IMG/VR virus record: IMGVR_UViG_3300013383_000019
Direction: 5' to 3' (one strand)
Length of the DNA: 64,000 bases
From: a virus
Lineage: Duplodnaviria > Heunggongvirae > Uroviricota > Caudoviricetes
Every line of letters begins with the position of its first letter. Position 1 is the first letter of the stretch. Under the pieces are notes generated by a model. The model was not told where the DNA came from, did not search any database, and saw nothing but the letters and a program-made list of their open reading frames with translations. A program made the translations under genes and the position numbers. Shown piece after piece: positions 2,359-22,035 of the stretch.

Positions 2359-2504
2359 ACTTCAAGTTCGACTTTCCCAACCTCAGCTAGATATTTTGAA
2401 ACGTCACTAATGTCGTATGCGTCCGGCGATTGTGTAATTTTCCCATAAAGGAACTCCATCCACCCGAGCAGAATCTCTTCCATTCGTTCCAACTTATTCT
2501 CCAT
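2292..2504 (-). CDS. Hypothetical protein, 70 aa, translationally coupled to the primase-polymerase gene.
   Basis: RBS GGAGGA 9 nt upstream; 11-nt overlap with the end of 2494..3942. Confidence 0.4.
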   Translation of the reverse strand: MENKLERMEEILLGWMEFLYGKITQSPDAYDISDVSKYLAEVGKVELEVRCYLEHSSRSQCMPPDKILQD

Positions 2505-3942
2505 TAACCAGTTCCTCCAATTCTTTTTTCCCCATAATCTTTTTCAGCCGCGCCTGCAGCACCATGGCCTGCAGCACCATGCTATATACTTCCATAAAAT
2601 TCTCCTTCGTGGGCTCAGCCAGATGATCCGGCAGCGTGACCTGCTTCGCCTGAAGGCTCCACTCCTCTGGCAATGGCGGCGGTGTGGATCCAACCACATA
2701 ATATTTGTTCGGCTTTCGTTTCAGCTGGCCGTTCTCCATGTATGCGGCTCCATGAACCAGATCGATCTGCCGCTGGCGTACCATCTTCCACGCCGCGTCA
2801 AAGACTGTCTTCCACGTCGTTCCCAGTGCCGCCGCCGCCCAGTCGTAGCTCATCTGGCAGGTAACATGTCGTTTCAGTTTCCACCGCAGCAGGAACATGA
2901 ACTTCCGGCAGGTACGATTCGGCTGTGCCGCCCAATAAGCAATGTCGTCCGCGGTGAACACGGTCGGCTTACCTTTTCCGGGTGACGCCGCCACAAACTG
3001 CTCGCTGTAGACCCAGCGCATAATGTCGTCCGTCTCGCGCTCCAACGCCGCCGGCGACTGAAGTAGGAAATCCTCCGGCTGGTGCGCCGCCCAGGCCAGC
3101 AGTTCCGCGCGGTTGCGCTCCTGGCTTAGCCCGCGCCGCCGGTTATACATCCCAATGGCCAGCATCGTGTTGTGTCGGTGCCCCGGCTCTAACAAATCGG
3201 GATAGCCGTCGCCCTCCATCTGCGCCAGGTCTGCCCGCTTCATCTTCCGCGCGGGGACTGTTTCATTCTCCGGCATATCAAACGGCTTGCGCGGCGGCAG
3301 GATTTCCAACACCTTTTCGAAGTCGGCCACCGCCATCTGCTGAATCTGTAATATATACGCCGGATCCTCGATGGGCTGCAGCGTATCCCGATCCAGATAC
3401 CAGCACACCCGCCCGGTCTTGCAATGCACTGACAGCGGCAGCTTTATGGCCTGCCCGTTGGTCGGCCTGAACTCTATCTTGTGCGGGTCGAAGTTGCCGT
3501 CCACGCATACGCAGTCGTAGAACTTGCGCAGCTGCTCGGTGTACACAAGCCTGTCAAAGAAGATCTCGACATGGTACCCTTTGCCTCCGCTGGTGCTGAC
3601 GTAAATCAGTTCGCGGGGGACGCCATACCCGGTCAGGATCTCGATCAGCTTCTTTACCTCGAACGGATCGGGATAGTCGACGTCAAAGCAGATGAATTTG
3701 CTGCTGTACGCACCGGCGAAGACGCTGATTGCCAGCCTGCGATTCAGATGCTGGCACACCGCCCGGTTGGTCAGCTTCACGGGACCGGAGCTGGACTTGG
3801 GCATGTATATCCGATACCCCGCTTCCAGCTCGGGTGCCGCCTGCATTACCACATAGCGCTGGCGGTATGAGATGTACAGGTCGCAGAGGCGGTTCACGAC
3901 GTCGTAAAAGTTTTCCATGGCAGGTCCCCCTGATTTAATCAA
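2494..3942 (-). CDS. Primase-polymerase of the archaeo-eukaryotic primase (AEP) family; a replication initiation protein.
   Basis: 482 aa with the motifs CFDVDYPD (DxD), SGGKGYHVEIFF and TGYGVPREL, which are typical of Prim-Pol domains. Sits next to a repeat-rich putative origin. Confidence 0.75.
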   Translation of the reverse strand: MIKSGGPAMENFYDVVNRLCDLYISYRQRYVVMQAAPELEAGYRIYMPKSSSGPVKLTNRAVCQHLNRRLAISVFAGAYSSKFICFDVDYPDPFEVKKLIEILTGYGVPRELIYVSTSGGKGYHVEIFFDRLVYTEQLRKFYDCVCVDGNFDPHKIEFRPTNGQAIKLPLSVHCKTGRVCWYLDRDTLQPIEDPAYILQIQQMAVADFEKVLEILPPRKPFDMPENETVPARKMKRADLAQMEGDGYPDLLEPGHRHNTMLAIGMYNRRRGLSQERNRAELLAWAAHQPEDFLLQSPAALERETDDIMRWVYSEQFVAASPGKGKPTVFTADDIAYWAAQPNRTCRKFMFLLRWKLKRHVTCQMSYDWAAAALGTTWKTVFDAAWKMVRQRQIDLVHGAAYMENGQLKRKPNKYYVVGSTPPPLPEEWSLQAKQVTLPDHLAEPTKENFMEVYSMVLQAMVLQARLKKIMGKKELEELVNGE

Positions 3943-3949
3943 TCATTAA

Positions 3950-3968
3950 TAAAGGGAACATTTTAATG
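3950..3968 (-). promoter_or_regulatory. Conserved phage promoter motif AAAATGTTCCCTTTATTA; copy 1 of 5, upstream of the primase gene.
   Basis: Reverse complement of taataaagggaacatttt, about 30 nt upstream of the primase start on the minus strand. Confidence 0.55.
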
Positions 3969-4020
3969 GCCGTTTTTTCAGTTTGGCGAAAAAAATTTTT
4001 GCGGCAGCCGCAGAAGCATT

Positions 4021-4108
4021 GTTAAATATTTCACATTGAAATGAAAAACTTAAGTGAACGAATGGATATGGTCTAGGGAAGAGTAGGGATATATACTTCG
4101 TATATATA
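4021..4108 (+). repeat. Copy A of the 90 bp regulatory repeat module. It contains aaaacttaagtgaac and the palindrome atatatacttcgtatatat.
   Basis: About 85-90% identical to 4231..4317 and to the inverted copy 20645..20735. Confidence 0.8.
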
Positions 4109-4230
4109 AACTGTAATATTTGGGAGCTGCGGTCTTGGCGGTTTGTCTCCGACCTTTGGTCATGACCTTGACCTCAGCCTTCGGCCTTCGGCCTTGGCCA
4201 GACCATGAAATTAGTTATTACGATATACAT

Positions 4231-4317
4231 GTTAAATATTTCACATTGAAACAAAAAACTTAAGTGAACATGAGGATATCGGTCTTGGGAAGAGTAGGAT
4301 ATATACTTCGTATATAT
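4231..4317 (+). repeat. Copy B of the 90 bp regulatory repeat module, a direct tandem of copy A.
   Basis: Sequence identity to 4021..4108. Confidence 0.8.
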
Positions 4318-4481
4318 GGGCTCAGGTTCTGATCTTGAAATAAGGGGAGTTTCTGCACTTCTTCGCAGCTTCGCTCTGCTCAGAAGTACAGAAATGTCAT
4401 CGCTTCGGAACGGCCTGCGGCCTTCGCAGCTTCGGCCTTGGGACCTTGGGGCAGGGGCCTCATACCTTCTTGGAATTATCG

Positions 4482-4505
4482 TTAAATAATTCACATTAAA
4501 ACAAG
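4482..4505 (+). repeat. Partial copy C of the 90 bp module (gttaaataattcacattaaaacaa).
   Basis: Matches the 5' end of copies A and B. Confidence 0.5.
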
Positions 4506-5249
4506 GGGCGCGGCTTCGCAATTTCGTGGCTTCGCGGCTTCGCGGCTTCGGCCGTTGTCTTCGCTCCTGGGGGCTTCAGCTTCAAAGAAAAAATATCTCT
4601 GCAACGGGAAGGTTATGCCCGAAACCCACTCCCAATATATCCGACAACGGTTAAGGCCGAAATTTATTTCGATATTTATCGAAGCAAAATGGCGGGTTTT
4701 GGACGTTTTTCAGGCATTTTTCAGGGGGATTGGCGGAGCATTTGGGCGTCTTTGAAGGCCATTTTATGATATAGTTTAATAACGAATTCACCATGAAATG
4801 AGCGACCAGAGAGTGAACAGCCAGAGAAGCTGGCGCGAGCTGAGGTGAAATGGGTAAAGATTGTGCAAAGTTATGGCTGGGAATGCGAAAATATGTTGAT
4901 ATGTAACAGGCATAGAGGATTTGGAAGGCCGCCACACGCCACAAACGTAAACTATCATAACAGGTCATAATATGCCATTATGTCCTGTTATCTTTTTAAC
5001 AATACACATGCTTTTTCTAATAAATATAATGTGTATCGATATGCAATAAAGCGAATAAAAGCCATGGCAAGGCAATGCCTAGCGTCGAACTAGGTAAACG
5101 AGCGTTTACATCATGACAATAGTTATTTATTTAACAATTAAACACTCATTTAATCGTTCACAACAGTAAACATCTGTTTACCTTTTCGTTAAATATTTAA
5201 CGTAGTCCAGCCCAAAGCGCTTCACTTTGCTGAAGCGTCTGCCTTGGCT

Positions 5250-5435
5250 CTCCACCCCTCCACCCCTCCACCCCTCCACCCCTCGGAGGGAAGCGCTCTA
5301 CCCTGATAAAGCGCTTACCCCCGATGCCCTGCCTTCGCCGTCCTTCGCCGTCCTTCGCCGTCCTTCGCCTTCCTTCCCTTCCTTCCCTTCCTTCCTCCCT
5401 CCCTGCCTTCCCTTCCCTTCCCTTCCCTTCCCTAT
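5250..5435. repeat. Polypyrimidine tract on the plus strand, polypurine on the minus strand, with (CCACCCCT)4, (CCTTCGCCGT)3-4 and (CCTTC/CCCTT)n runs. The minus strand carries G4-capable GGGAAG / GGAGGGGT repeats.
   Basis: Direct reading of the sequence: ccacccctccacccctccacccctccaccc ... ccttcccttcccttcccttccc. Confidence 0.8.
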
Positions 5436-5552
5436 ATAGCACCATAATACCAGTTAGATATATCTAACGCCATCCTTTTTGCTATATAATAGGTAGAAAC
5501 CGCCGCCAAGCAAAAAGTTGCGAAAAAAAGCAAAAAAAATTTGCAGAAGGGG

Positions 5553-5581
5553 TTGACATACACTGCATAGTGTGCTATCAT
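5553..5581 (+). promoter_or_regulatory. Sigma70-type promoter: TTGACA, 17 bp spacer, extended TGcTATCAT.
   Basis: Consensus -35 box, exact 17 bp spacing and an extended -10; about 270 nt upstream of the ATG at 5852. Confidence 0.6.
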
Positions 5582-5589
5582 GCGTCATG

Positions 5590-5850
5590 TCAAGACACTG
5601 TGCAGTGTCTTCCGCACCTTGACAGTCCAATAGCCCCCGCCCCCGTCGCAGGGATTGCGCCCCATGGGTGCGCGCCGTCGGTGTATCCGGCAAGGGCGCG
5701 CGAAAAAGCCCACAAGCGCATGATATGCGATAGAGGACGGGCGCACAAGAGCATTTTTCCGCCGCTTGCAGGATTCCTTCCCTGCCAAAAAGCTTATTAA
5801 GGTTACCCAAAAATAATTTAACAGCGGCGCACGCCGCAGAAGGAGAAAAC
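5590..5850 (+). other. Long GC-rich 5' leader, about 260 nt, with a perfect hairpin (aagacactg-tg-cagtgtctt); possibly a structured regulatory RNA.
   Basis: Lies between the promoter and the RBS aaggaga; an inverted repeat at 5590-5612; C- and G-rich tracts. Confidence 0.3.
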
Positions 5851-5851
5851 C

Positions 5852-6649
5852 ATGGAAAAGACCACCACCATCATCAGCGCGGAAAATGCCAAAACCATCG
5901 CCCAGAAAATGACCGAACGGGCAAGTGCGCCTCAAATTAAGACCGTGCGCGTCAACGTCAATCCGTGCTGTTTCGCGTCCAACTTTGCGGAACAGCTGCG
6001 GGAACGCCAAACCGCGCTGGATAACGCCATTGCTCTGTACAAGTCTACCTATACGGAAAAAGGCGATATCATTAGCGCATGGGCGAACGTCGAAACGGCG
6101 CTAGAGGACTATAACGCCGAATACAAAGCCTTGCAGATTGACGCTTTGCGCAACGCCGGGACGGCTGTATATGTCACGTCTCCGATGTGCAAGGTTTGCA
6201 AGGTTCGCCGCGACAAAGACGGGCTTTATAAGTCTATGGACTTTGTTGACATGCCTGTTTTACCGTCTGAGTTCGACGACCGCGAAAAACCCATGTTTGC
6301 AAGTGCCCACTGGAAAGACGCCTTCCGCAACCTTGCGAACGCTTGCGGTTTTGTGTTCGGCGAAGAATGCGCCTTCGAAAACCGCGAAGGTGCTTCTAGC
6401 CGCGCAAAAATCAAAGACGCGCTTGCGGATTGCATTAAAGCTGTTTTCGGCTCTGAGTGCAAATACAGTCCGCGTTCTAGCGACGTTAGCGCGTTACTGT
6501 ACAGTTTCGCAAGTCGTGACACGCGCAACGTTAACAGCTTTAAGCGTATGGCCGTGAGCATGTTCCGTTGGTGCATTATCGACACTATCGGCGCGGCCAT
6601 GAACGGCGCTAGCTACAAATTTACCGCGACCAAAAAAGACGCCGAATGA
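5852..6649 (+). CDS. Hypothetical protein, 265 aa.
   Basis: Track ORF with RBS aggaga, a strong promoter and a downstream terminator. Confidence 0.6.
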   Translation: MEKTTTIISAENAKTIAQKMTERASAPQIKTVRVNVNPCCFASNFAEQLRERQTALDNAIALYKSTYTEKGDIISAWANVETALEDYNAEYKALQIDALRNAGTAVYVTSPMCKVCKVRRDKDGLYKSMDFVDMPVLPSEFDDREKPMFASAHWKDAFRNLANACGFVFGEECAFENREGASSRAKIKDALADCIKAVFGSECKYSPRSSDVSALLYSFASRDTRNVNSFKRMAVSMFRWCIIDTIGAAMNGASYKFTATKKDAE

Positions 6650-6775
6650 CCCTATACCTATACCCTGCCGTCCTGCGGGCGGCGGAAAAATGCTCTTGTG
6701 TGTGTGCTATGATTTTCGATAAAGGCCACCCCTTTGTGGGGCTGGTCTATTTCTCGTGCCTTAATTTATTTCAAT

Positions 6776-6815
6776 AAAGCGTTTGCTCCGGCCTTTTCAA
6801 ACGCTTTATTTTTGC
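6776..6815 (+). terminator. Rho-independent terminator.
   Basis: Stem aaagcgtttg...caaacgcttt followed by atttttg. Confidence 0.6.
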
Positions 6816-7433
6816 CAAACAAGGCAATCATAGCAATGGGCGTTATAAATTTATGGCAAGGCAAGCCTATAACCATAGCTGTATAGCATAGCATGGCATG
6901 GCTTGCGTGCTCTACCTACCATGGCGGCGGTATGCCTATAAGACGCAGCGGCGTTGTATAAAGGCAGGAATCATCATATCCGACGATAGTGGCGGCGGGG
7001 CTGAAAAAGCCATACCCGGCGTATCCTAGCAGGGACAAAACACGCGTTCGAAAGAGCGCCTGTAGCGCGTCGTACCGTTGCGAAACAGGAACGGCTATAA
7101 GGGGATACGATTCTATTTTTGCGCAGAACTTTGCGGTTTGCAAGGGGCGGTTTATGCGAGACCGTCTCTTGCGACCGCAGCAAAGCGAAAGCGGAATGAT
7201 TGTTTTATTGAATTTACAGGAATGTTATAACTATGGATAGAGGAAATTCTACACCATACGAAGAAAATTCGGCTTCGCCCGCTTTGCCTGCGCAGCCTTC
7301 TGCCTTGCATTTGGCTCCGCCTTCGGCCTTGCCGGCCTTGCCTTTTGGCAACAATTCTGCTTCGCCGGCCTTGCCTTCCGGCGGCAGCTATGTTACAATG
7401 GCGGCAGAATGTGAAGGTAAAGGCGGGAAGAAT

Positions 7434-7664
7434 ATGGCGATCGATATGAAGCGGAAAAAGCAATATGATAATGAATGGCAGCGGCAAAATTGTATTCGAA
7501 TAAATTTTACAATTCGAAATAATACCGATACGGCAAAAGGTGTTATGATGTTGAAAGAACAGAAAATACCTGTTACGCCATACATTGAAAAAGCCCTTCG
7601 TAAACAACTCATCGCCGACGGCTATTTACGGCAATCCATCCAATCCAACGAAACAGAAGAATAA
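7434..7664 (+). CDS. Small ribbon-helix-helix-like DNA-binding protein, 76 aa.
   Basis: MAIDMKRKKQYDNEWQRQNCIRINFTIRNN.. resembles CopG/RHH plasmid and phage regulators. The track ORF 7233..7664 has an N-terminal extension that is a translation of Ala/Pro-coding repeat DNA and is probably not real. Confidence 0.45.
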   Translation: MAIDMKRKKQYDNEWQRQNCIRINFTIRNNTDTAKGVMMLKEQKIPVTPYIEKALRKQLIADGYLRQSIQSNETEE

Positions 7665-17767: not shown

Positions 17768-18526
17768 ATGGAAAACCAGACGCAAATTTTTAACAACGAA
17801 CAGTTTGGAAACGTCAGGATTATCGAGGAAGCCGGGAAATTCTTGTTCTGCGGCAGCGATGTAGCGAAGGCGCTGGGATATGCCCGTCCTAATGACGCGA
17901 TCGCCGCGCATTGCCGGTATACGGCAAAACGCAGTATACCTCACCCGCAGGCCGCGGATAAACAAATCGACATGATTTTCATTCCCGAAGGCGACGTTTA
18001 CCGCCTCATCACCCACAGTAAACTCCCGGATGCAGAAAAATTCGAACGCTGGGTGTTCGACGAAATACTTCCCGCCATCCGCAAAACGGGCGGCTACATC
18101 GCCGGCGAAGAAAACATGACAGACGATGAGCTCGTCGCCAAGGCGCTCATTATCACAACCGAGAAGCTCAAGCAGCGCGAAGCAAGGATTGCCGCGCTCA
18201 GCGCGCAGATCGAGGAAGATCGCCCCTATACTCATTTCGGCAAGTCCATCTCCGCCAGCGACGCCACCATCCTGCTCGGCGATTTCGCCAAGGTCGCCGC
18301 CAACAGCGGCATTCCCATCGGCCGCAACCGGCTCTTCAAGTGGCTGCGCGATAACAAATACCTCATGCCGGATAATAAACCGTATCAGCGGTATGTCGAT
18401 CAGGGCGTGTTCGCTGTCAAGGAAAGCAAGGTCTTCACCGGCTTTGAGGAAACCATCCGGACAACCACGCTCGTCACCGGCAAAGGGCAGAAATATCTCA
18501 TGGAACGATTGGAGGCCGGCGCATAA
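17768..18526 (+). CDS. Phage antirepressor with a Bro-N domain and a KilA-C domain.
   Basis: N-terminal FNNEQFGNVRII..FCGSDVAKALGY (Bro-N); C-terminal KilAC-like region; RBS gaggagg. Confidence 0.7.
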   Translation: MENQTQIFNNEQFGNVRIIEEAGKFLFCGSDVAKALGYARPNDAIAAHCRYTAKRSIPHPQAADKQIDMIFIPEGDVYRLITHSKLPDAEKFERWVFDEILPAIRKTGGYIAGEENMTDDELVAKALIITTEKLKQREARIAALSAQIEEDRPYTHFGKSISASDATILLGDFAKVAANSGIPIGRNRLFKWLRDNKYLMPDNKPYQRYVDQGVFAVKESKVFTGFEETIRTTTLVTGKGQKYLMERLEAGA

Positions 18527-18813: not shown

Positions 18814-19350
18814 ATGAAACTTGATATCGACGATACGAAATTTTTCGACGACCCAATCTTCGGCAACCTCTGGGCGATAAAAACAAACGGCGTGTGGTGG
18901 TTTTCCGGGCTGAATATCGCGCACTCGCTCGGATATGAGAATCCGGAAGCCGCCGTGAAAAACCATTGTGCGCCGGCTGGTATTGTCTGGCGGGAAGACA
19001 GGCCGTGCGTCTCGCTCAGCAACGCGCTTCGGCTCACAGCGTTCAGCACATCTCCCAAAGCCACAGCATACGGCGACTGGCTCGGCAACGACGTGGTCCC
19101 CGCGCTCTTCAAAAAAAACAGCATCTATTGCATCCCAAGCAAGGACGAAACCACATGGCGCAGCGCTATGGCACTTCTGATTGTCGCGCTTATCGTCTCC
19201 TTTGGATCGCTCGCAATCCATCTGATCGCTCATTCGGACTTGCATAAAAATTCAATTACGGCAACTAATCCGCCGGCGATTGTGGCAACTGCGATTGCCG
19301 CCCTCCCCCAGGAAGATCTCATCCTCTCAAATCTATCGCGAAAATATTGA
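18814..19350 (+). CDS. Bro-N domain protein with a C-terminal TM segment.
   Basis: FGNLWAIKTNGVWWFSGLNIAHSLGYENP is the Bro-N signature. Confidence 0.6.
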   Translation: MKLDIDDTKFFDDPIFGNLWAIKTNGVWWFSGLNIAHSLGYENPEAAVKNHCAPAGIVWREDRPCVSLSNALRLTAFSTSPKATAYGDWLGNDVVPALFKKNSIYCIPSKDETTWRSAMALLIVALIVSFGSLAIHLIAHSDLHKNSITATNPPAIVATAIAALPQEDLILSNLSRKY

Positions 19351-20889: not shown

Positions 20890-22035
20890 ATGGAAAATCA
20901 GATTCAGCTTTTTAAGAACGAACAGTTCGGGGACGTGAGAACGGTACTGCAGAACGGCGAACCATGGTTTGTGGCCGCCGATGTGTGTAGGTGTATTGGT
21001 CTGGGTAATGTTTCCAGCGTTATCAACCGTCTTGATGATGAAGAAAAACGGAAGTATGAAATTGAAACATCCGGTGGAAAGCAGACGCTCAACTTTGTCA
21101 ACAAAAACGGGCTGATTGTTATCGTTTGTGGCAGCCGAAAAGAAATTGCAAAACGCTTCAAGAATTGGATTTCTACTTCTGTTTTCCCGGCGCTTGGTCT
21201 ACGGTGGAGCCTTGACGATATCTATCAGCAGGAAACGGTTTGCGCTTCGTCTGAACTGTCGGTTTACAATAGTGCAGAGTTCGGTTCTGTTCGCGTCCAC
21301 CGAGATGAAAACAATGACCCATGGTTTGTAGCGGCGGATGCTTGCAGAATCCTTTCGCTTTCTGACACGTCGCAGGCAATGGAACGAATTGATGATGAAG
21401 ACAAAAGGGTGTTCAGAGGAATACGCACCGCAAATAATACCCTTTTCGCGTGGTGCGTTAATGAATCCGGGCTTTACTCTTTGATTATCGAATCGAACAA
21501 ACCTGAGGCCAAAGCCTTCCGGCGCTGGATCACCCATGAGGTTATCCCCTCCGTCCGCAAGCATGGCCTTTACGCCGCCGATGAGCTGCTCGCCAACCCT
21601 GATCTGTTCATCAAGGTTCTGCAGGATCTCAAAGAGGAACGCGCCCGCGCCGCTCAGCTGGCCACGCAGAACGCCGTCCAGTCCCAGCAGATCGCGGAAA
21701 TGCAGCCCAAGGTCAGCTACTATGATCTCATCCTGCAAAATCAGTCCGTCATGCCCATCGTGCAGATTGCCAAGGACTACGGGTTCTCTGCGCGGACGAT
21801 GAACCAGAAGCTGCATGAGCTCGGCGTGCAGTATAAGAGCGGCGGCGTGTGGCTGCTGTATCAGAAGTACACCCCGGAGGGATATACGCAGACCAAGACC
21901 TATCTTAACGACGACGGGGCCTGCAACGTTCACACCTACTGGACGCAGAAAGGCCGGCTCTTTCTCTACGACCTGCTGAAACGGAAGGGGATTCTTCCCA
22001 GAATCGAACAGAATAACGAGGAGGTATGCGCGTAA
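20890..22035 (+). CDS. Antirepressor with two tandem Bro-N domains and a KilA-C domain.
   Basis: FKNEQFGDVR..WFVAADVCRCIGL and AEFGSVRVHRDENNDPWFVAADACRILSL are Bro-N repeats; C-terminal KilAC-like region. Confidence 0.7.
   Translation: MENQIQLFKNEQFGDVRTVLQNGEPWFVAADVCRCIGLGNVSSVINRLDDEEKRKYEIETSGGKQTLNFVNKNGLIVIVCGSRKEIAKRFKNWISTSVFPALGLRWSLDDIYQQETVCASSELSVYNSAEFGSVRVHRDENNDPWFVAADACRILSLSDTSQAMERIDDEDKRVFRGIRTANNTLFAWCVNESGLYSLIIESNKPEAKAFRRWITHEVIPSVRKHGLYAADELLANPDLFIKVLQDLKEERARAAQLATQNAVQSQQIAEMQPKVSYYDLILQNQSVMPIVQIAKDYGFSARTMNQKLHELGVQYKSGGVWLLYQKYTPEGYTQTKTYLNDDGACNVHTYWTQKGRLFLYDLLKRKGILPRIEQNNEEVCA

What the first reader, a model, noticed from the sequence alone, without database searches (positions are those of the whole stretch)
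3943..5851. A 1.9 kb non-coding control region next to the primase gene: candidate replication origin with iterons, an AT-rich block and a 200 bp G4-capable polypurine/polypyrimidine tract
No credible ORF lies between 3943 and 5851. The region contains:
- the tandem 90 bp modules;
- dispersed CTTCGGCCTTG / GGCTTCGC iterons at 4190-4560, with relatives at 7260-7390;
- an AT-rich segment with the palindromes cgttaaatatttaacg and atggcaaggcaatgcc at 4950-5200;
- at 5250-5435, a strand-asymmetric tract of (CCACCCCT)4, (CCTTCGCCGT)n and (CCCTT)n. Its complement is a run of GGGAAG/GGAGGGGT repeats that could form G-quadruplexes or triplex DNA.

Such tracts are unusual in phage genomes. The tract lies between the putative origin and a strong sigma70 promoter at 5553-5581, so it may act as a replication-fork or transcription barrier or switch.
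Basis: seen in the sequence. Interest (0 to 1): 0.5.

Follow-up and report, generated by a model that had tools for sequence, protein, structure and literature searches.

The report
Gene-free phage control region, possible origin
The 1.9 kb stretch without protein genes next to a phage primase gene is a real, conserved control hub (promoters, operator sites, a small-RNA gene, a folded mRNA leader, and possibly the replication origin), but its G-quadruplex-prone repeat tract is a recent repeat expansion found only in this phage's closest kin.

Summary
Window 3919-5851 has no conserved ORF. It lies between an AEP primase-polymerase gene (2494-3918, minus strand) and a 265-aa ORFan (5852-6649). 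A 1.35-1.95 kb gene-free gap sits in the same place in every related contig that spans this region (uncultured gut Clostridia phages and prophages).

The gap is a mosaic, not one "origin". It contains:
- the primase promoter;
- duplicated about 95-nt modules with hairpins;
- short-period GC-rich repeats;
- a promoter-to-terminator unit (about 4777-4997), best read as an sRNA gene and absent from Rfam;
- the most AT-rich, least stable DNA of the 64 kb window, carrying palindromic boxes found nowhere else in it;
- the pyrimidine tract;
- two tandem rightward promoters, the strong one flanked by operator pairs that differ in every relative;
- a 235-nt mRNA leader with strong covariation.

The tract (5250-5435) holds the only canonical G4 motifs in the window, on the minus strand. 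Its repeat numbers differ between near-identical genomes. Relatives keep only a shorter pyrimidine-rich stretch without G4 motifs, so G4 capacity is probably incidental.

An origin in the AT-rich, box-bearing part (about 5000-5480) is plausible but unproven.

The parts
2494..3918 (-). AEP primase-polymerase gene (474 aa), the left flank of the region.
   Evidence: Translation. Pfam AEP-TOTE, E = 2.3e-10. 165 homologues.
3919..4015 (-). Primase leader and promoter: -35 TCGCCA at 3989-3984 and -10 TAAAAT at 3965-3960. Upstream are an A7T5 tract and the small GC hairpin 4000-4012.
   Evidence: The same promoter (TTCAAA-17-TAAAAT) is found in L010, L021, L023 and L013 by the scan, and the block reads as conserved in the other relatives' sequences.
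4016..4110 (.). Module copy 1. It has a half-palindromic box GTTAAATATTTCAC (4021-4034), the motif AAAACTTAAGTGAAC, a purine run GGGAAGAGTAGG, and the AT hairpin H1 ATATATAC-TTC-GTATATAT (4089-4107).
   Evidence: H1 is kept, with partly different stem sequence, in all relatives that have this part.
4226..4320 (.). Module copy 2, 89.9% identical to copy 1 over the 89 nt aligned and starting 210 nt after it. Its box is at 4231-4244 and its H1 hairpin at 4299-4317.
   Evidence: L022 also has two copies. The type-A relatives have one.
4350..4394 (-). Hairpin H2 with a 13-bp stem. It folds better on the minus strand, where G.U replaces a C.A mismatch. In type-A relatives a T-run follows it on the minus strand, as in an intrinsic terminator.
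   Evidence: DNA fold -13.2 kcal/mol (z -4.9) on the minus strand versus -11.0 (z -3.1) on the plus strand. Stem sequences differ but still pair in the window, L010-type relatives and L022.
4177..4557 (.). Dispersed short-period GC-rich repeats: (GCCTTCG)x3.4 at 4177-4199, copies at 4413-4441, and (CGCGGCTT)x5.2 at 4509-4550. A third box, GTTAAATAATTCAC, lies among them at 4481-4494.
   Evidence: Relatives carry other numbers and forms. L022 has (NACGAAGT)x4 on the other strand.
4658..4681 (.). Two overlapping palindromes, CGAAATTTATTTCG and CGATATTTATCG, upstream of the sRNA promoter.
   Evidence: Read. Conserved in L010, L014, L018, L019, L021 and L028.
4765..4997 (+). Candidate sRNA gene. 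It has a -10 TATGAT at 4765-4770, a body of about 4777-4956 with a near-invariant core (about 4886-4951), a terminator hairpin at 4957-4991 and a U-run at 4993-4997.
   Evidence: Alignment A1. Compensatory changes at three pairs of the terminator stem. Hairpin followed by a U-run. The -10 is conserved. One copy is found in each of 17 related loci, always on the strand opposite the primase. No Rfam match.
4998..5249 (.). AT-rich block with protein-binding-type boxes: GTAAAC-N4-GTTTAC at 5094-5109 and 5166-5181, the perfect palindrome CGTTAAATATTTAACG at 5187-5202, and RAAGCGCTY repeats from 5214. This is the best origin (DNA-unwinding) candidate.
   Evidence: The boxes are conserved in 8 relatives. 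L013 and L023 have a different AT-rich block with AACCTAYC...GATAGGTT palindromes instead.
5250..5435 (-). Pyrimidine (+) / purine (-) tract made of three microsatellites. The G4 motifs are on the minus strand. (CCCTT)n is the complement of (AAGGG)n.
   Evidence: Copy numbers differ among the window, L006 and L008. Relatives have a stretch of only about 50-90 nt without G4 motifs.
5453..5490 (+). Perfect palindrome GTTAGATATATCTAAC (5453-5468) overlapping the -35 of promoter P1 (-10 TATAAT at 5485-5490). On the minus strand, -10-like hexamers (TGGTATTAT, TGCTATATA) face the purine tract.
5508..5611 (+). A-tracts (5508-5545), then the strong promoter P2 (TTGACA 5553-5558, TATCAT 5576-5581). Two operator-like palindromes flank it: ACACTGCATAGTGT at 5560-5573 and AAGACACTGTGCAGTGTCTT at 5592-5611.
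   Evidence: The -35 and -10 are conserved in all relatives, but the paired palindromes differ in the window, L006, L010, L013, L014, L019, L021, L023 and L028.
5617..5851 (+). Structured 5' leader of the 265-aa gene. It is present only where that gene is present.
   Evidence: Alignment A2. RNAalifold predicts 53 pairs, 14 of them with compensatory changes. 94.3% of cells are paired; 0 of 500 shuffles reach this, and slid controls give 34-45%. G.U pairs mark the plus strand as the folded one.
5852..6649 (+). 265-aa ORFan, the first gene of the rightward operon and the right flank of the region.
   Evidence: No Pfam or PHROG hit. Only 8 homologues in 5.8 billion proteins. The AlphaFold model is unusable, with pLDDT 49.5.

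Best explanation
This is the divergent early control region of a family of temperate phages of uncultured gut Clostridia. It is a mosaic of separate cis elements, not one origin.

Shown:
- Leftward, a conserved promoter drives the primase-polymerase gene.
- Rightward, two tandem promoters drive the early operon. P1 has its -35 inside a conserved 16-bp palindrome. The strong P2 carries one operator in its spacer and one at about +12.
- The P2 operator sequences differ in every relative, as expected for immunity-specific repressor sites.
- The early mRNA starts with a 235-nt structured leader.
- Between the promoters lies an independent promoter-to-terminator unit of about 220 nt, best read as an sRNA gene.
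- Upstream of the primase promoter are module(s) with conserved hairpins (H1, H2).

Inferred:
- The gene-free core (about 5000-5480) is the most likely place for the origin used by the adjacent primase-polymerase. It combines the least stable DNA of the window with two sets of palindromic boxes and RAAGCGCT repeats.
- The pyrimidine/purine tract is a clade-specific slippage expansion of a shorter, conserved, strand-asymmetric spacer. What selection keeps is the strand asymmetry and position. G-quadruplex formation is not needed for its function.
For: - A gap of 1.35-1.95 kb is found at the same place in the 12 related loci that span it, where the primase protein is 65-100% identical. The gap has no conserved ORF.
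- Conserved promoters were found by the same scan in all relatives.
- The P2 operator pairs are swapped even between the window and L006, whose gaps are 95% identical overall.
- Four assemblies break at or just before P1/P2 (L009, L012, L028, L029). This fits strain heterogeneity at that point.
- sRNA unit: the terminator covaries. One copy per locus is found, always in the same relative orientation. The core motifs are also present 440-500 nt upstream of primases that are only 33% identical.
- The leader structure is supported by 14 compensatory pairs, and 0 of 500 shuffles match it.
- The AT block is the least stable DNA of the 64 kb, and its boxes are unique to this gap.
- The primase-polymerase is the only recognisable replication gene among the larger ORFs tested within 24 kb.
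- The gene-orientation switch and the in-window minimum of cumulative GC skew both fall here.
- Tract: repeat numbers differ among genomes with identical primases. G4 motifs occur only in that clade. A pyrimidine-rich stretch on the same strand and at the same place is present in 7 of 10 informative relatives.
Against: - No experiment or coverage data show origin activity.
- The GC-skew minimum is confounded by the change of gene orientation, and only 64 of about 118 kb were seen.
- No DnaA boxes and no classical iterons of about 20 bp were found.
- The box types do not co-vary with either domain of the primase, so the protein that binds them is unknown.
- The sRNA body shows no covarying structure (fold z -0.17). 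It could instead encode a 19-25-aa peptide in most relatives, though not in L012 or L022.
- All promoters are consensus predictions only.
Confidence: 0.55

Rival explanations
1. One reading: the whole region is an iteron-type origin, and the G4- or triplex-forming tract acts as a replication-fork or transcription barrier or switch between the origin and the early promoter.
For: - Repeats, an AT-rich block and adjacency to the primase are real.
- The tract is strongly G4-capable on paper.
- Its (AAGGG)n strand is a motif reported to form triplex and G4 structures and to stall replication at long repeat lengths (PMC10402041, abstract as listed).
Against: - G4 motifs are absent from all relatives outside the window, L006 and L008.
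- The tract varies in length between near-identical genomes.
- The "iterons" have 7-8 nt periods and flip strand in L022.
- Much of the 1.9 kb consists of RNA elements and promoters.
- The (AAGGG) run has only 5-6 units.
Confidence: 0.12
2. Transcription-primed origin. A leftward promoter next to the palindrome transcribes the tract, so the RNA and the non-template strand are G-rich. A stable R-loop forms, possibly helped by G4 on the displaced strand, and its RNA 3' end is extended by the primase-polymerase into the adjacent AT-rich unwinding block. The divergent sRNA, antisense to any long leftward transcript, would then act as a ColE1 RNA I-like regulator.
For: - A -10-like hexamer (TATGAT, TATAAT or TGGTATTAT) directly precedes the purine-rich run GAAGGGATAGGG on the minus strand in all 9 relatives that have the palindrome. 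It reaches the promoter-scan threshold in the window, L006, L019 and L021.
- The tract's orientation is the one reported to favour RNA-DNA hybrid G-quadruplexes, with a G-rich non-template strand (PMC4176368 and PMC3488243, abstracts listed).
- The AT-rich block lies immediately downstream in that direction.
- H2 looks like a minus-strand terminator.
- Titles and abstracts listed report R-loops at or next to herpesvirus lytic origins (PMC12203722, bioRxiv 10.64898/2026.08.31.748444). R-loop priming at ColE1, T4 and mitochondrial origins is stated from my own knowledge; the review PMC4412123 was listed but not read.
Against: - The leftward promoter has no convincing -35 in most relatives.
- G content of the first 120 nt falls from 54% in the window to 17-34% in L013, L023 and L010.
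- There is no evidence of transcription.
Confidence: 0.12
3. Rho-loading insulator. Read in the plus direction, the tract gives a C-rich, G-poor, unstructured RNA (C 53%, G 11%), which is an ideal rut site. It would terminate read-through from the sRNA gene or the AT-block promoter before it reaches the repressed early promoters.
For: - Composition.
- The plus-strand RNA of the tract is weakly structured (-28 kcal/mol over 206 nt).
- C exceeds G on the plus strand in 8 of 9 relatives.
- A semi-conserved plus-strand promoter follows the sRNA terminator: TACACA-16-TATAAT in the window and TTGCCC-17/18-TATTAT or TATAGT in L018 and L019.
- That Rho prefers C-rich, G-poor RNA is established knowledge, stated from memory.
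Against: - Neither Rho in the host nor plus-strand transcription of the tract was tested.
- L013 lacks the skew.
- The promoter is not conserved in L010 or L014.
Confidence: 0.12
4. Purely transcriptional switch. The region holds only promoters, operators and non-coding RNAs for the lysis-lysogeny decision, and the origin lies elsewhere, for example inside or downstream of the primase gene.
For: - Dense promoters and palindromes.
- Hypervariable operators typical of immunity regions.
- AT-rich DNA is also typical of promoter regions.
- No DnaA boxes or classical iterons.
Against: - About 480 nt (5000-5480) carry no predicted transcript end or gene that the boxes could regulate.
- No repressor gene lies in or next to the gap.
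- Large gaps beside homologous primases recur even at 30% identity: L001-L003 and Bacillus methanolicus L017.
Confidence: 0.3

Closest known systems
Non-coding origins beside replication genes of temperate Firmicutes phages and satellites, such as S. thermophilus Sfi21-type phage ori and SaPI ori next to pri-rep (recalled from memory)
   Same: A gene-free segment with direct and inverted repeats and an AT-rich stretch lies next to the primase or initiator gene.
   Different: This gap is three to five times longer. It also contains an sRNA-like gene, a structured leader and both early promoters. Repeat periods are 7-10 nt or 17 nt rather than matched iteron sets flanking the AT block. No function has been tested.
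RSF1010 oriV, served by the RepB' primase (recalled from memory)
   Same: Repeats, GC-rich and AT-rich segments and conserved hairpins lie near the gene of a plasmid- or phage-encoded primase.
   Different: RSF1010 has 3.5 iterons of 20 bp and two ssi hairpins on opposite strands. Here the H1 hairpins are direct repeats (one copy in most relatives), and in type-A relatives H1 sits in the spacer of a predicted promoter.
Transcription-primed origins: ColE1 RNA II/RNA I, T4 oriF/oriG, mitochondrial LSP-CSB II, herpesvirus oriLyt R-loops (PMC3488243, PMC4176368, PMC12203722 as listed; PMC4412123 listed but not read; ColE1 and T4 from memory)
   Same: A G-rich non-template tract lies next to an unwinding region, downstream of a possible promoter. 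A divergent small RNA could act as an antisense regulator.
   Different: Promoter activity, R-loop formation and RNA processing are all untested. G-richness is strong only in the window's own clade.
Disease-type (AAGGG)n / polypurine mirror repeats (CANVAS, PMC10402041, abstract as listed)
   Same: The same repeat unit is on the minus strand, so triplex and G4 formation are possible in principle.
   Different: There are only 5-6 units here, far shorter than my recollection of the expanded disease alleles. The tract is embedded in other microsatellites.
Lambdoid immunity regions and arrays of 7-bp heptads bound by the Inc18 omega repressor (recalled from memory)
   Same: Paired operators around a strong early promoter differ between otherwise similar phages. 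Arrays of 7-8 bp units occur in either orientation.
   Different: No repressor gene lies in or beside the region. The binding proteins are unknown.

Membership tests
Iteron-type theta origin | Several direct repeats of about 17-22 bp that bind the initiator | tested here: inconclusive
   TRF and the repeat finder give 7-, 8- and 10-nt periods. RAAGCGCTY units with about 17-nt spacing occur 2+2 times. The binding protein is unknown.
Iteron-type theta origin | AT-rich DNA-unwinding element next to the repeats | tested here: met
   GC is 24% at 5105-5204, and the four least stable 100-nt windows of the 64 kb all lie in this gap.
Iteron-type theta origin | DnaA boxes (present in many but not all such origins) | tested here: not met
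   No TTATCCACA within one mismatch anywhere in 3919-5851.
Iteron-type theta origin | Supports autonomous replication with its initiator | not testable with these tools
   Needs a plasmid replication assay or coverage mapping.
RSF1010-type oriV with ssi sites | Two primase-recognised hairpins on opposite strands | tested here: not met
   The H1 copies are direct repeats, and there is a single copy in most relatives.
Canonical G-quadruplex motif (G>=3 N1-7)x4 | Motif present | tested here: met
   Motifs at 5255-5285 and 5397-5435 on the minus strand, the only ones in the 64 kb. G4-aware folding agrees.
Functional (selected) G-quadruplex element | Motif conserved in related genomes at the same site | tested here: not met
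   Present only in the window, L006 and L008. Absent at this site in L010, L013, L014, L018, L019, L021 and L023, and none evident by eye in L028.
R-loop / transcription-primed origin | Promoter reading into a tract whose non-template strand is G-rich | tested here: inconclusive
   A conserved -10-like hexamer abuts the purine run. It reaches the scan threshold in only 4 of 10 relatives.
Rho-dependent terminator (rut site) | At least about 80 nt of C-rich, G-poor, weakly structured RNA | tested here: met
   The plus strand is C 53% and G 11% over 186 nt, with weak predicted structure. Rho dependence was not tested.
Any Rfam RNA family | Score at or above the family's gathering threshold | tested here: not met
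   No hits at gathering thresholds over the whole window. Only chance-level hits at E <= 10 in 3800-7000.
Bacterial or phage sRNA gene with an intrinsic terminator | Promoter, no conserved ORF, and a covarying GC/AU hairpin followed by a U-run | tested here: met
   A conserved -10. Compensatory changes at 3 pairs of the terminator stem and a U-run. The small ORFs are broken in L012, L014 and L022 (read by eye). Transcription itself was not tested.
Structured cis-regulatory mRNA leader | Covariation-supported secondary structure in the 5' UTR | tested here: met
   53 pairs, 14 of them compensatory. 94.3% of cells paired versus 34-45% in slid controls. 0 of 500 shuffles reach this.

The most novel reading that the evidence does not exclude
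The pyrimidine/purine tract, the conserved leftward -10 beside it, the AT-rich box region and the divergent small RNA together form a transcription-primed, antisense-controlled origin. A G-rich RNA forms an R-loop, helped by G4 on the displaced strand in this clade. An archaeo-eukaryotic-type primase-polymerase extends that RNA. This would be a phage counterpart of ColE1 RNA II/RNA I, mitochondrial CSB II and herpesvirus oriLyt. The small RNA would be an ancient partner of this primase family, because its core motifs persist next to primases that are only 33% identical.
Probability: 0.1. Interest if true: 0.75.

Novelty: new member of a known kind. Interest (0 to 1): 0.4.

Why it matters
If the AT-rich, box-bearing core is the origin, this family offers a compact replicon (AEP primase-polymerase plus adjacent origin) from abundant, uncultured human-gut Clostridia phages. 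No homologue was found in the reference phage collection.

Whatever the origin question, the region yields three things:
- two RNA elements absent from Rfam, an sRNA-like unit linked to this primase family and a strongly covarying 235-nt leader;
- a natural series of at least nine different operator pairs on one conserved promoter, useful for studying immunity specificity;
- a caution: the most conspicuous feature, the G4-prone tract, is the least conserved one.

Tried and rejected
- DNA similarity of the gap to reference phages: no match.
- tblastn of the primase against phages: no match.
- tblastn against plasmids gave only 25-29% identical hits in small Staphylococcus plasmids. Their "non-coding" stretch appears to hold an unannotated ORF, so they say nothing about origin architecture.
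- Rfam at gathering and at permissive thresholds: nothing credible. No tRNA or tmRNA.
- Exact-pattern scans of IMG/VR for the sRNA core and the leader: none. A looser two-motif pattern found only L001-L003 again, one possible distant case (L034) and five hits that look like chance. The metagenome scan was not run, because the two attempts were rejected for pattern syntax.
- The 265-aa neighbour has 8 homologues and no names. Its AlphaFold model has pLDDT 49.5, so no fold search was attempted.
- Coding tests of gap ORFs were negative.
- I looked for co-variation between primase domains and box or module types as a way to identify the box-binding protein. There was none; the family is mosaic.
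- Target search for the sRNA core by duplex folding against all translation-initiation regions gave uninformative energies and was dropped.
- Whole-genome GC skew was not possible, because only 64 of about 118 kb are held. The in-window minimum at 5-6 kb coincides with the gene-orientation switch.
Full report
**Where it is.** The window is identical to part of ENA contig ERZ808259 NODE_28 (118.5 kb; locus L007). Window 3919-5851 lies between a leftward gene and a rightward gene. The leftward gene (2494-3918, 474 aa) has DxD and GxGYH motifs and matches Pfam AEP-TOTE at E = 2.3e-10, so it is an archaeo-eukaryotic-type primase-polymerase. The rightward gene is a 265-aa ORFan (5852-6649) with 8 homologues in 5.8 billion proteins and no annotation. 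Two contigs of an uncultured Clostridia MAG from Hadza gut carry primase homologues 90% and 59% identical. Several relatives sit two or three genes from an integrase and next to bacterial genes, so the family is temperate. Among the larger ORFs tested in the first 24 kb, no other replication gene is recognisable. The hits there are anti-repressor (Bro-N/ANT) paralogues, DUF932, DUF2958, a multi-HTH protein and an AAA_21/AbiEii-like ATPase.

**Checking the observation.** All the listed features are in the sequence.
- TRF reports (GCCTTCG)x3.4 at 4177-4199, (CGCGGCTT)x5.2 at 4509-4550, (CTCCACCC)x4.4 at 5250-5284, (CCTTCGCCGT)x6.5 at 5332-5394 and (CCTTC)x15.6 at 5362-5433.
- The "tandem 90 bp modules" are two about 95-nt direct repeats, 89.9% identical over 89 nt and starting 210 nt apart. 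A third copy of only the first 20-30 nt lies at 4476-4505.
- The tract at 5250-5435 has A15 C99 G21 T51. It contains the only canonical G4 motifs of the 64 kb, all on the minus strand, and is the only region with |G4Hunter| >= 2. The only 100-nt windows with >= 80% pyrimidine start at 5296-5372. G4-aware folding places three quadruplexes in the minus-strand RNA.
- The AT-rich block is the least GC-rich and least stable DNA of the window.
- The promoter at 5553-5581 matches 11 of 12 consensus positions and has an upstream TG.

**Is it non-coding?** Public gene calls leave the homologous gap empty in the related contigs that span it. The one exception is a 97-aa call on the opposite strand of the GC-rich leader in L021. 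The window's gap ORFs have no Pfam hit. Translated comparison of gap ORFs between relatives gives matches in all frames and on both strands, and the ORFs are interrupted in relatives. That is the signature of DNA- or RNA-level conservation.

**Comparative anatomy.** I collected the gap from loci whose primases are 65-100% identical to the window's: L006, L008, L010, L012-L014, L018, L019, L021-L023 and L025-L030. Wherever the contig spans it, the gap is 1.35-1.95 kb. From left to right in window orientation:

1. **Primase promoter and leader.** These are conserved in the relatives. The scan finds TTCAAA-17-TAAAAT in L010, L021, L023 and L013, and TCGCCA-18-TAAAAT in the window.
2. **Hairpin module.** A purine run (GGGAAGAGTAGG or GGGAAAAGAGAG) is followed by the AT hairpin H1. 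Its stem is ATATATAC/GTATATAT in the window, TATACTAC/GTAGTATA in the "type A" relatives and ATGATATATAC/GTATATATCAT in L012. The module is single in most relatives and duplicated in the window clade and in L022. In type-A relatives H1 is exactly the spacer of a predicted leftward promoter, TTGGTA-17-TATACT.
3. **Hairpin H2 (4350-4394).** Its stems differ but still pair in three lineages. It folds better on the minus strand, where type-A relatives have a T-run after it. It probably terminates a leftward transcript.
4. **GC-rich short-period repeats.** These are built on CTTCG and GGCCTTG. Their number and form vary, and in L022 they appear as (NACGAAGT)x4 on the other strand.
5. **Two overlapping palindromes (4658-4681).**
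6. **A promoter-to-terminator unit, about 4777-4997.** It has a conserved -10 (TATGAT or TATAAT) and a near-invariant core (GCGAAAATATGTTGAT..GACAGGCATAGAGGATTTGGAAGGCCGCCACACGCCACAAACGTAAA). A hairpin plus U-run follows, and its stem shows compensatory changes at three pairs.
   - A profile finds exactly one copy in each of 17 related loci, always on the strand opposite the primase.
   - The motifs AGGCATAGGG and CAAAACGTAAA, with a downstream terminator, also lie 440-500 nt upstream of primases that are only 33% identical, in three IMG/VR phages.
   - The body has no covarying fold (z -0.17).
   - A 19-25-aa ORF starting at the conserved ATGTTGAT is open in most relatives, but it is stopped at codon 4 in L012 and absent in L022. 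It has no good ribosome-binding site and no third-position bias when read by eye.
   - I read the unit as an sRNA gene. It is not in Rfam.
7. **The AT-rich block.** It carries GTAAAC-N4-GTTTAC twice and GTTAAA-NN-TTTAAC-type palindromes. Both box types occur nowhere else in the 64 kb. Relatives keep two to four of each. L013 and L023 have a non-homologous AT-rich block with different palindromes (AACCTAYC...GATAGGTT).
8. **RAAGCGCTY repeats with about 17-nt spacing, then the pyrimidine tract.**
9. **Promoter P1.** The perfect palindrome GTTAGATATATCTAAC has its right half in the -35 of a conserved promoter with a consensus TATAAT.
10. **A-tracts, then the strong promoter P2.** Its -35 and -10 are invariant. 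It has one operator-like palindrome in the spacer and a second at about +12. These pairs are different in the window, L006, L010, L013, L014, L019, L021, L023 and L028, even though the window and L006 gaps are 95% identical overall. That is what immunity-specific repressor sites look like. Four independent assemblies end at or just before this spot, which fits strain heterogeneity there.
11. **A 235-nt leader, present only with the 265-aa gene.** RNAalifold predicts 53 pairs, 14 with compensatory changes among six sequences. 94.3% of cells are paired, against 34-45% when the partners are slid, and 0 of 500 shuffles reach the observed values. G.U pairs mark the plus strand as the folded one.

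**The tract in particular.** Among genomes with identical primase proteins, the three microsatellites differ in copy number: CCACCCCT 4 versus 5, CCTTCGCCGT 3 versus 2, CCTTC 5 versus 6. They therefore slip on short time scales. Outside this clade the site holds only a 50-90-nt pyrimidine-rich stretch ending in a conserved CCCTATCCCTTCATCATAT. That stretch reaches >= 80% pyrimidine over 60 nt in L010, L014, L019 and L021, is weaker in L018 and L023, and is absent in L013. None of these has a G4 motif there; L028's stretch is short and also shows none by eye. What is kept is position and strand asymmetry, not G4 capacity.

Two directional readings remain open. On the minus strand, a -10-like hexamer directly precedes the purine run in all nine relatives that have the palindrome. 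This would give a G-rich RNA and a G-rich non-template strand, the arrangement reported to favour RNA-DNA hybrid quadruplexes (PMC4176368, PMC3488243), pointing into the AT-rich block. On the plus strand, the RNA would be C 53% and G 11% and weakly structured, which is an ideal Rho-loading site downstream of a semi-conserved promoter.

**Origin or not?**

For:
- The gap adjoins the primase-polymerase, the only recognisable replication gene among the ORFs tested nearby.
- It contains the least stable DNA of the window.
- It contains boxes unique to this gap.
- Gene orientation switches here, and cumulative GC skew reaches its in-window minimum here.
- Large gaps recur beside primases that are only 30% identical.

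Against or missing:
- There are no DnaA boxes and no classical iterons.
- Box types do not track either primase domain.
- GC skew is confounded by gene orientation and covers only about half of the genome.
- No functional or coverage data exist.

I put about 55% on the composite reading with the origin in about 5000-5480, about 30% on a purely regulatory region with the origin elsewhere, and about 10-12% each on the more specific tract mechanisms.

**Comparison with known systems.** The general kind is familiar: a non-coding repeat- and AT-rich region beside a phage or plasmid primase or initiator gene, combined with divergent early promoters and variable operators. Examples, recalled from memory, are Sfi21-type phage ori, SaPI ori, RSF1010 oriV and lambdoid immunity regions. 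It fails the RSF1010 test because the hairpins are direct, not opposed, and it does not meet the classical iteron definition. The unusual points are its size, the two RNA elements not represented in Rfam, the number of operator types on one promoter, and a clade-specific G4-capable microsatellite block. I file it as a new member of a known kind, with moderate interest.

Noticed in passing
window 4765-4997 (+); also L001 about 5250-5330 (-), L002, L003: A promoter-to-terminator unit of about 220 nt with a near-invariant 65-nt core. It is present once beside every related primase. Its core motifs (AGGCATAGRG ... AAACGTAAA) are also found 440-500 nt upstream of primases only 33% identical. It is not in Rfam. 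It is a candidate sRNA family linked to this AEP primase family.
   Followed up: partly
window 5617-5851 (+): A 235-nt structured 5' leader of the 265-aa ORFan. 14 of its 53 predicted pairs have compensatory changes among six sequences. There is no Rfam match. It is a candidate new cis-regulatory RNA.
   Followed up: yes
window 5744-5773 and 6671-6700: A 30-nt segment of the leader has an inverted copy (93% identical) just after the stop codon of the 265-aa gene. A profile search finds the same inverted partial copy in L013, L019, L021 and L023. It could pair the 5' and 3' ends of the mRNA, or it could be the inverted ends of a gene cassette.
   Followed up: partly
window 5560-5611 and homologous sites in L006, L010, L013, L014, L019, L021, L023, L028: The paired operator-like palindromes around the strong early promoter have at least nine different sequences on an otherwise invariant promoter. 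The matching repressor gene was not found in or beside the region.
   Followed up: partly
window 6650-7664: There is a second long gap, because the public gene call starts only at 7434. However, ORF 7233-7664 is open in the five relatives that carry this gene, and its downstream part is conserved as peptide (..ALPFG..SYxxMAAE..GKNM). The CTTCGCC/GGCCTTGCC repeats there probably encode SASPALP repeats.
   Followed up: partly
L009 start (= window 5518); L012, L028, L029 contig ends: Independent metagenome assemblies break at or just before the P1/P2 operator segment. L028 and L029 end at the same base. This is probably caused by strain-level variation there.
   Followed up: partly
L007 14796-14851 (outside the window, about 6.9 kb left of the primase start): There is a 58-nt copy (83% identical) of the primase promoter and leader segment (window 3943-4000). 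It lies at the 3' end of the endolysin-like gene, at the start of another 2.4 kb stretch with no called gene (L007 14825-17272).
   Followed up: no
L025 and L026, from about 360 nt upstream of the primase: In these relatives (primase 92% identical) the gap diverges after the third GTTAAATAATTCAC box into unrelated sequence. I guess this is a mobile-element insertion, but I ran no protein search on it. The prophage may be decaying.
   Followed up: no
L034 1765-3876 (IMG/VR UViG 3300021400_001287): An unrelated-looking phage has a gene-free region of about 2 kb. It carries the same two core motifs, purine-rich runs, many TTTGCTA/TTTGTTTAGTC repeats and a terminal CCTTGACAAC motif. No primase homologue was detected in the stretch held.
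   Followed up: partly
window 17768-18526, 18814-19350, 20890-22035: Three Bro-N or Bro-N/ANT anti-repressor paralogues lie within 4.3 kb.
   Followed up: no
plasmids NZ_CP073901.1 and about 30 others: Distant homologues of the primase-polymerase (25-29% identity) occur on small (6.45 kb), non-typeable Staphylococcus plasmids. There they may be the replication protein.
   Followed up: partly
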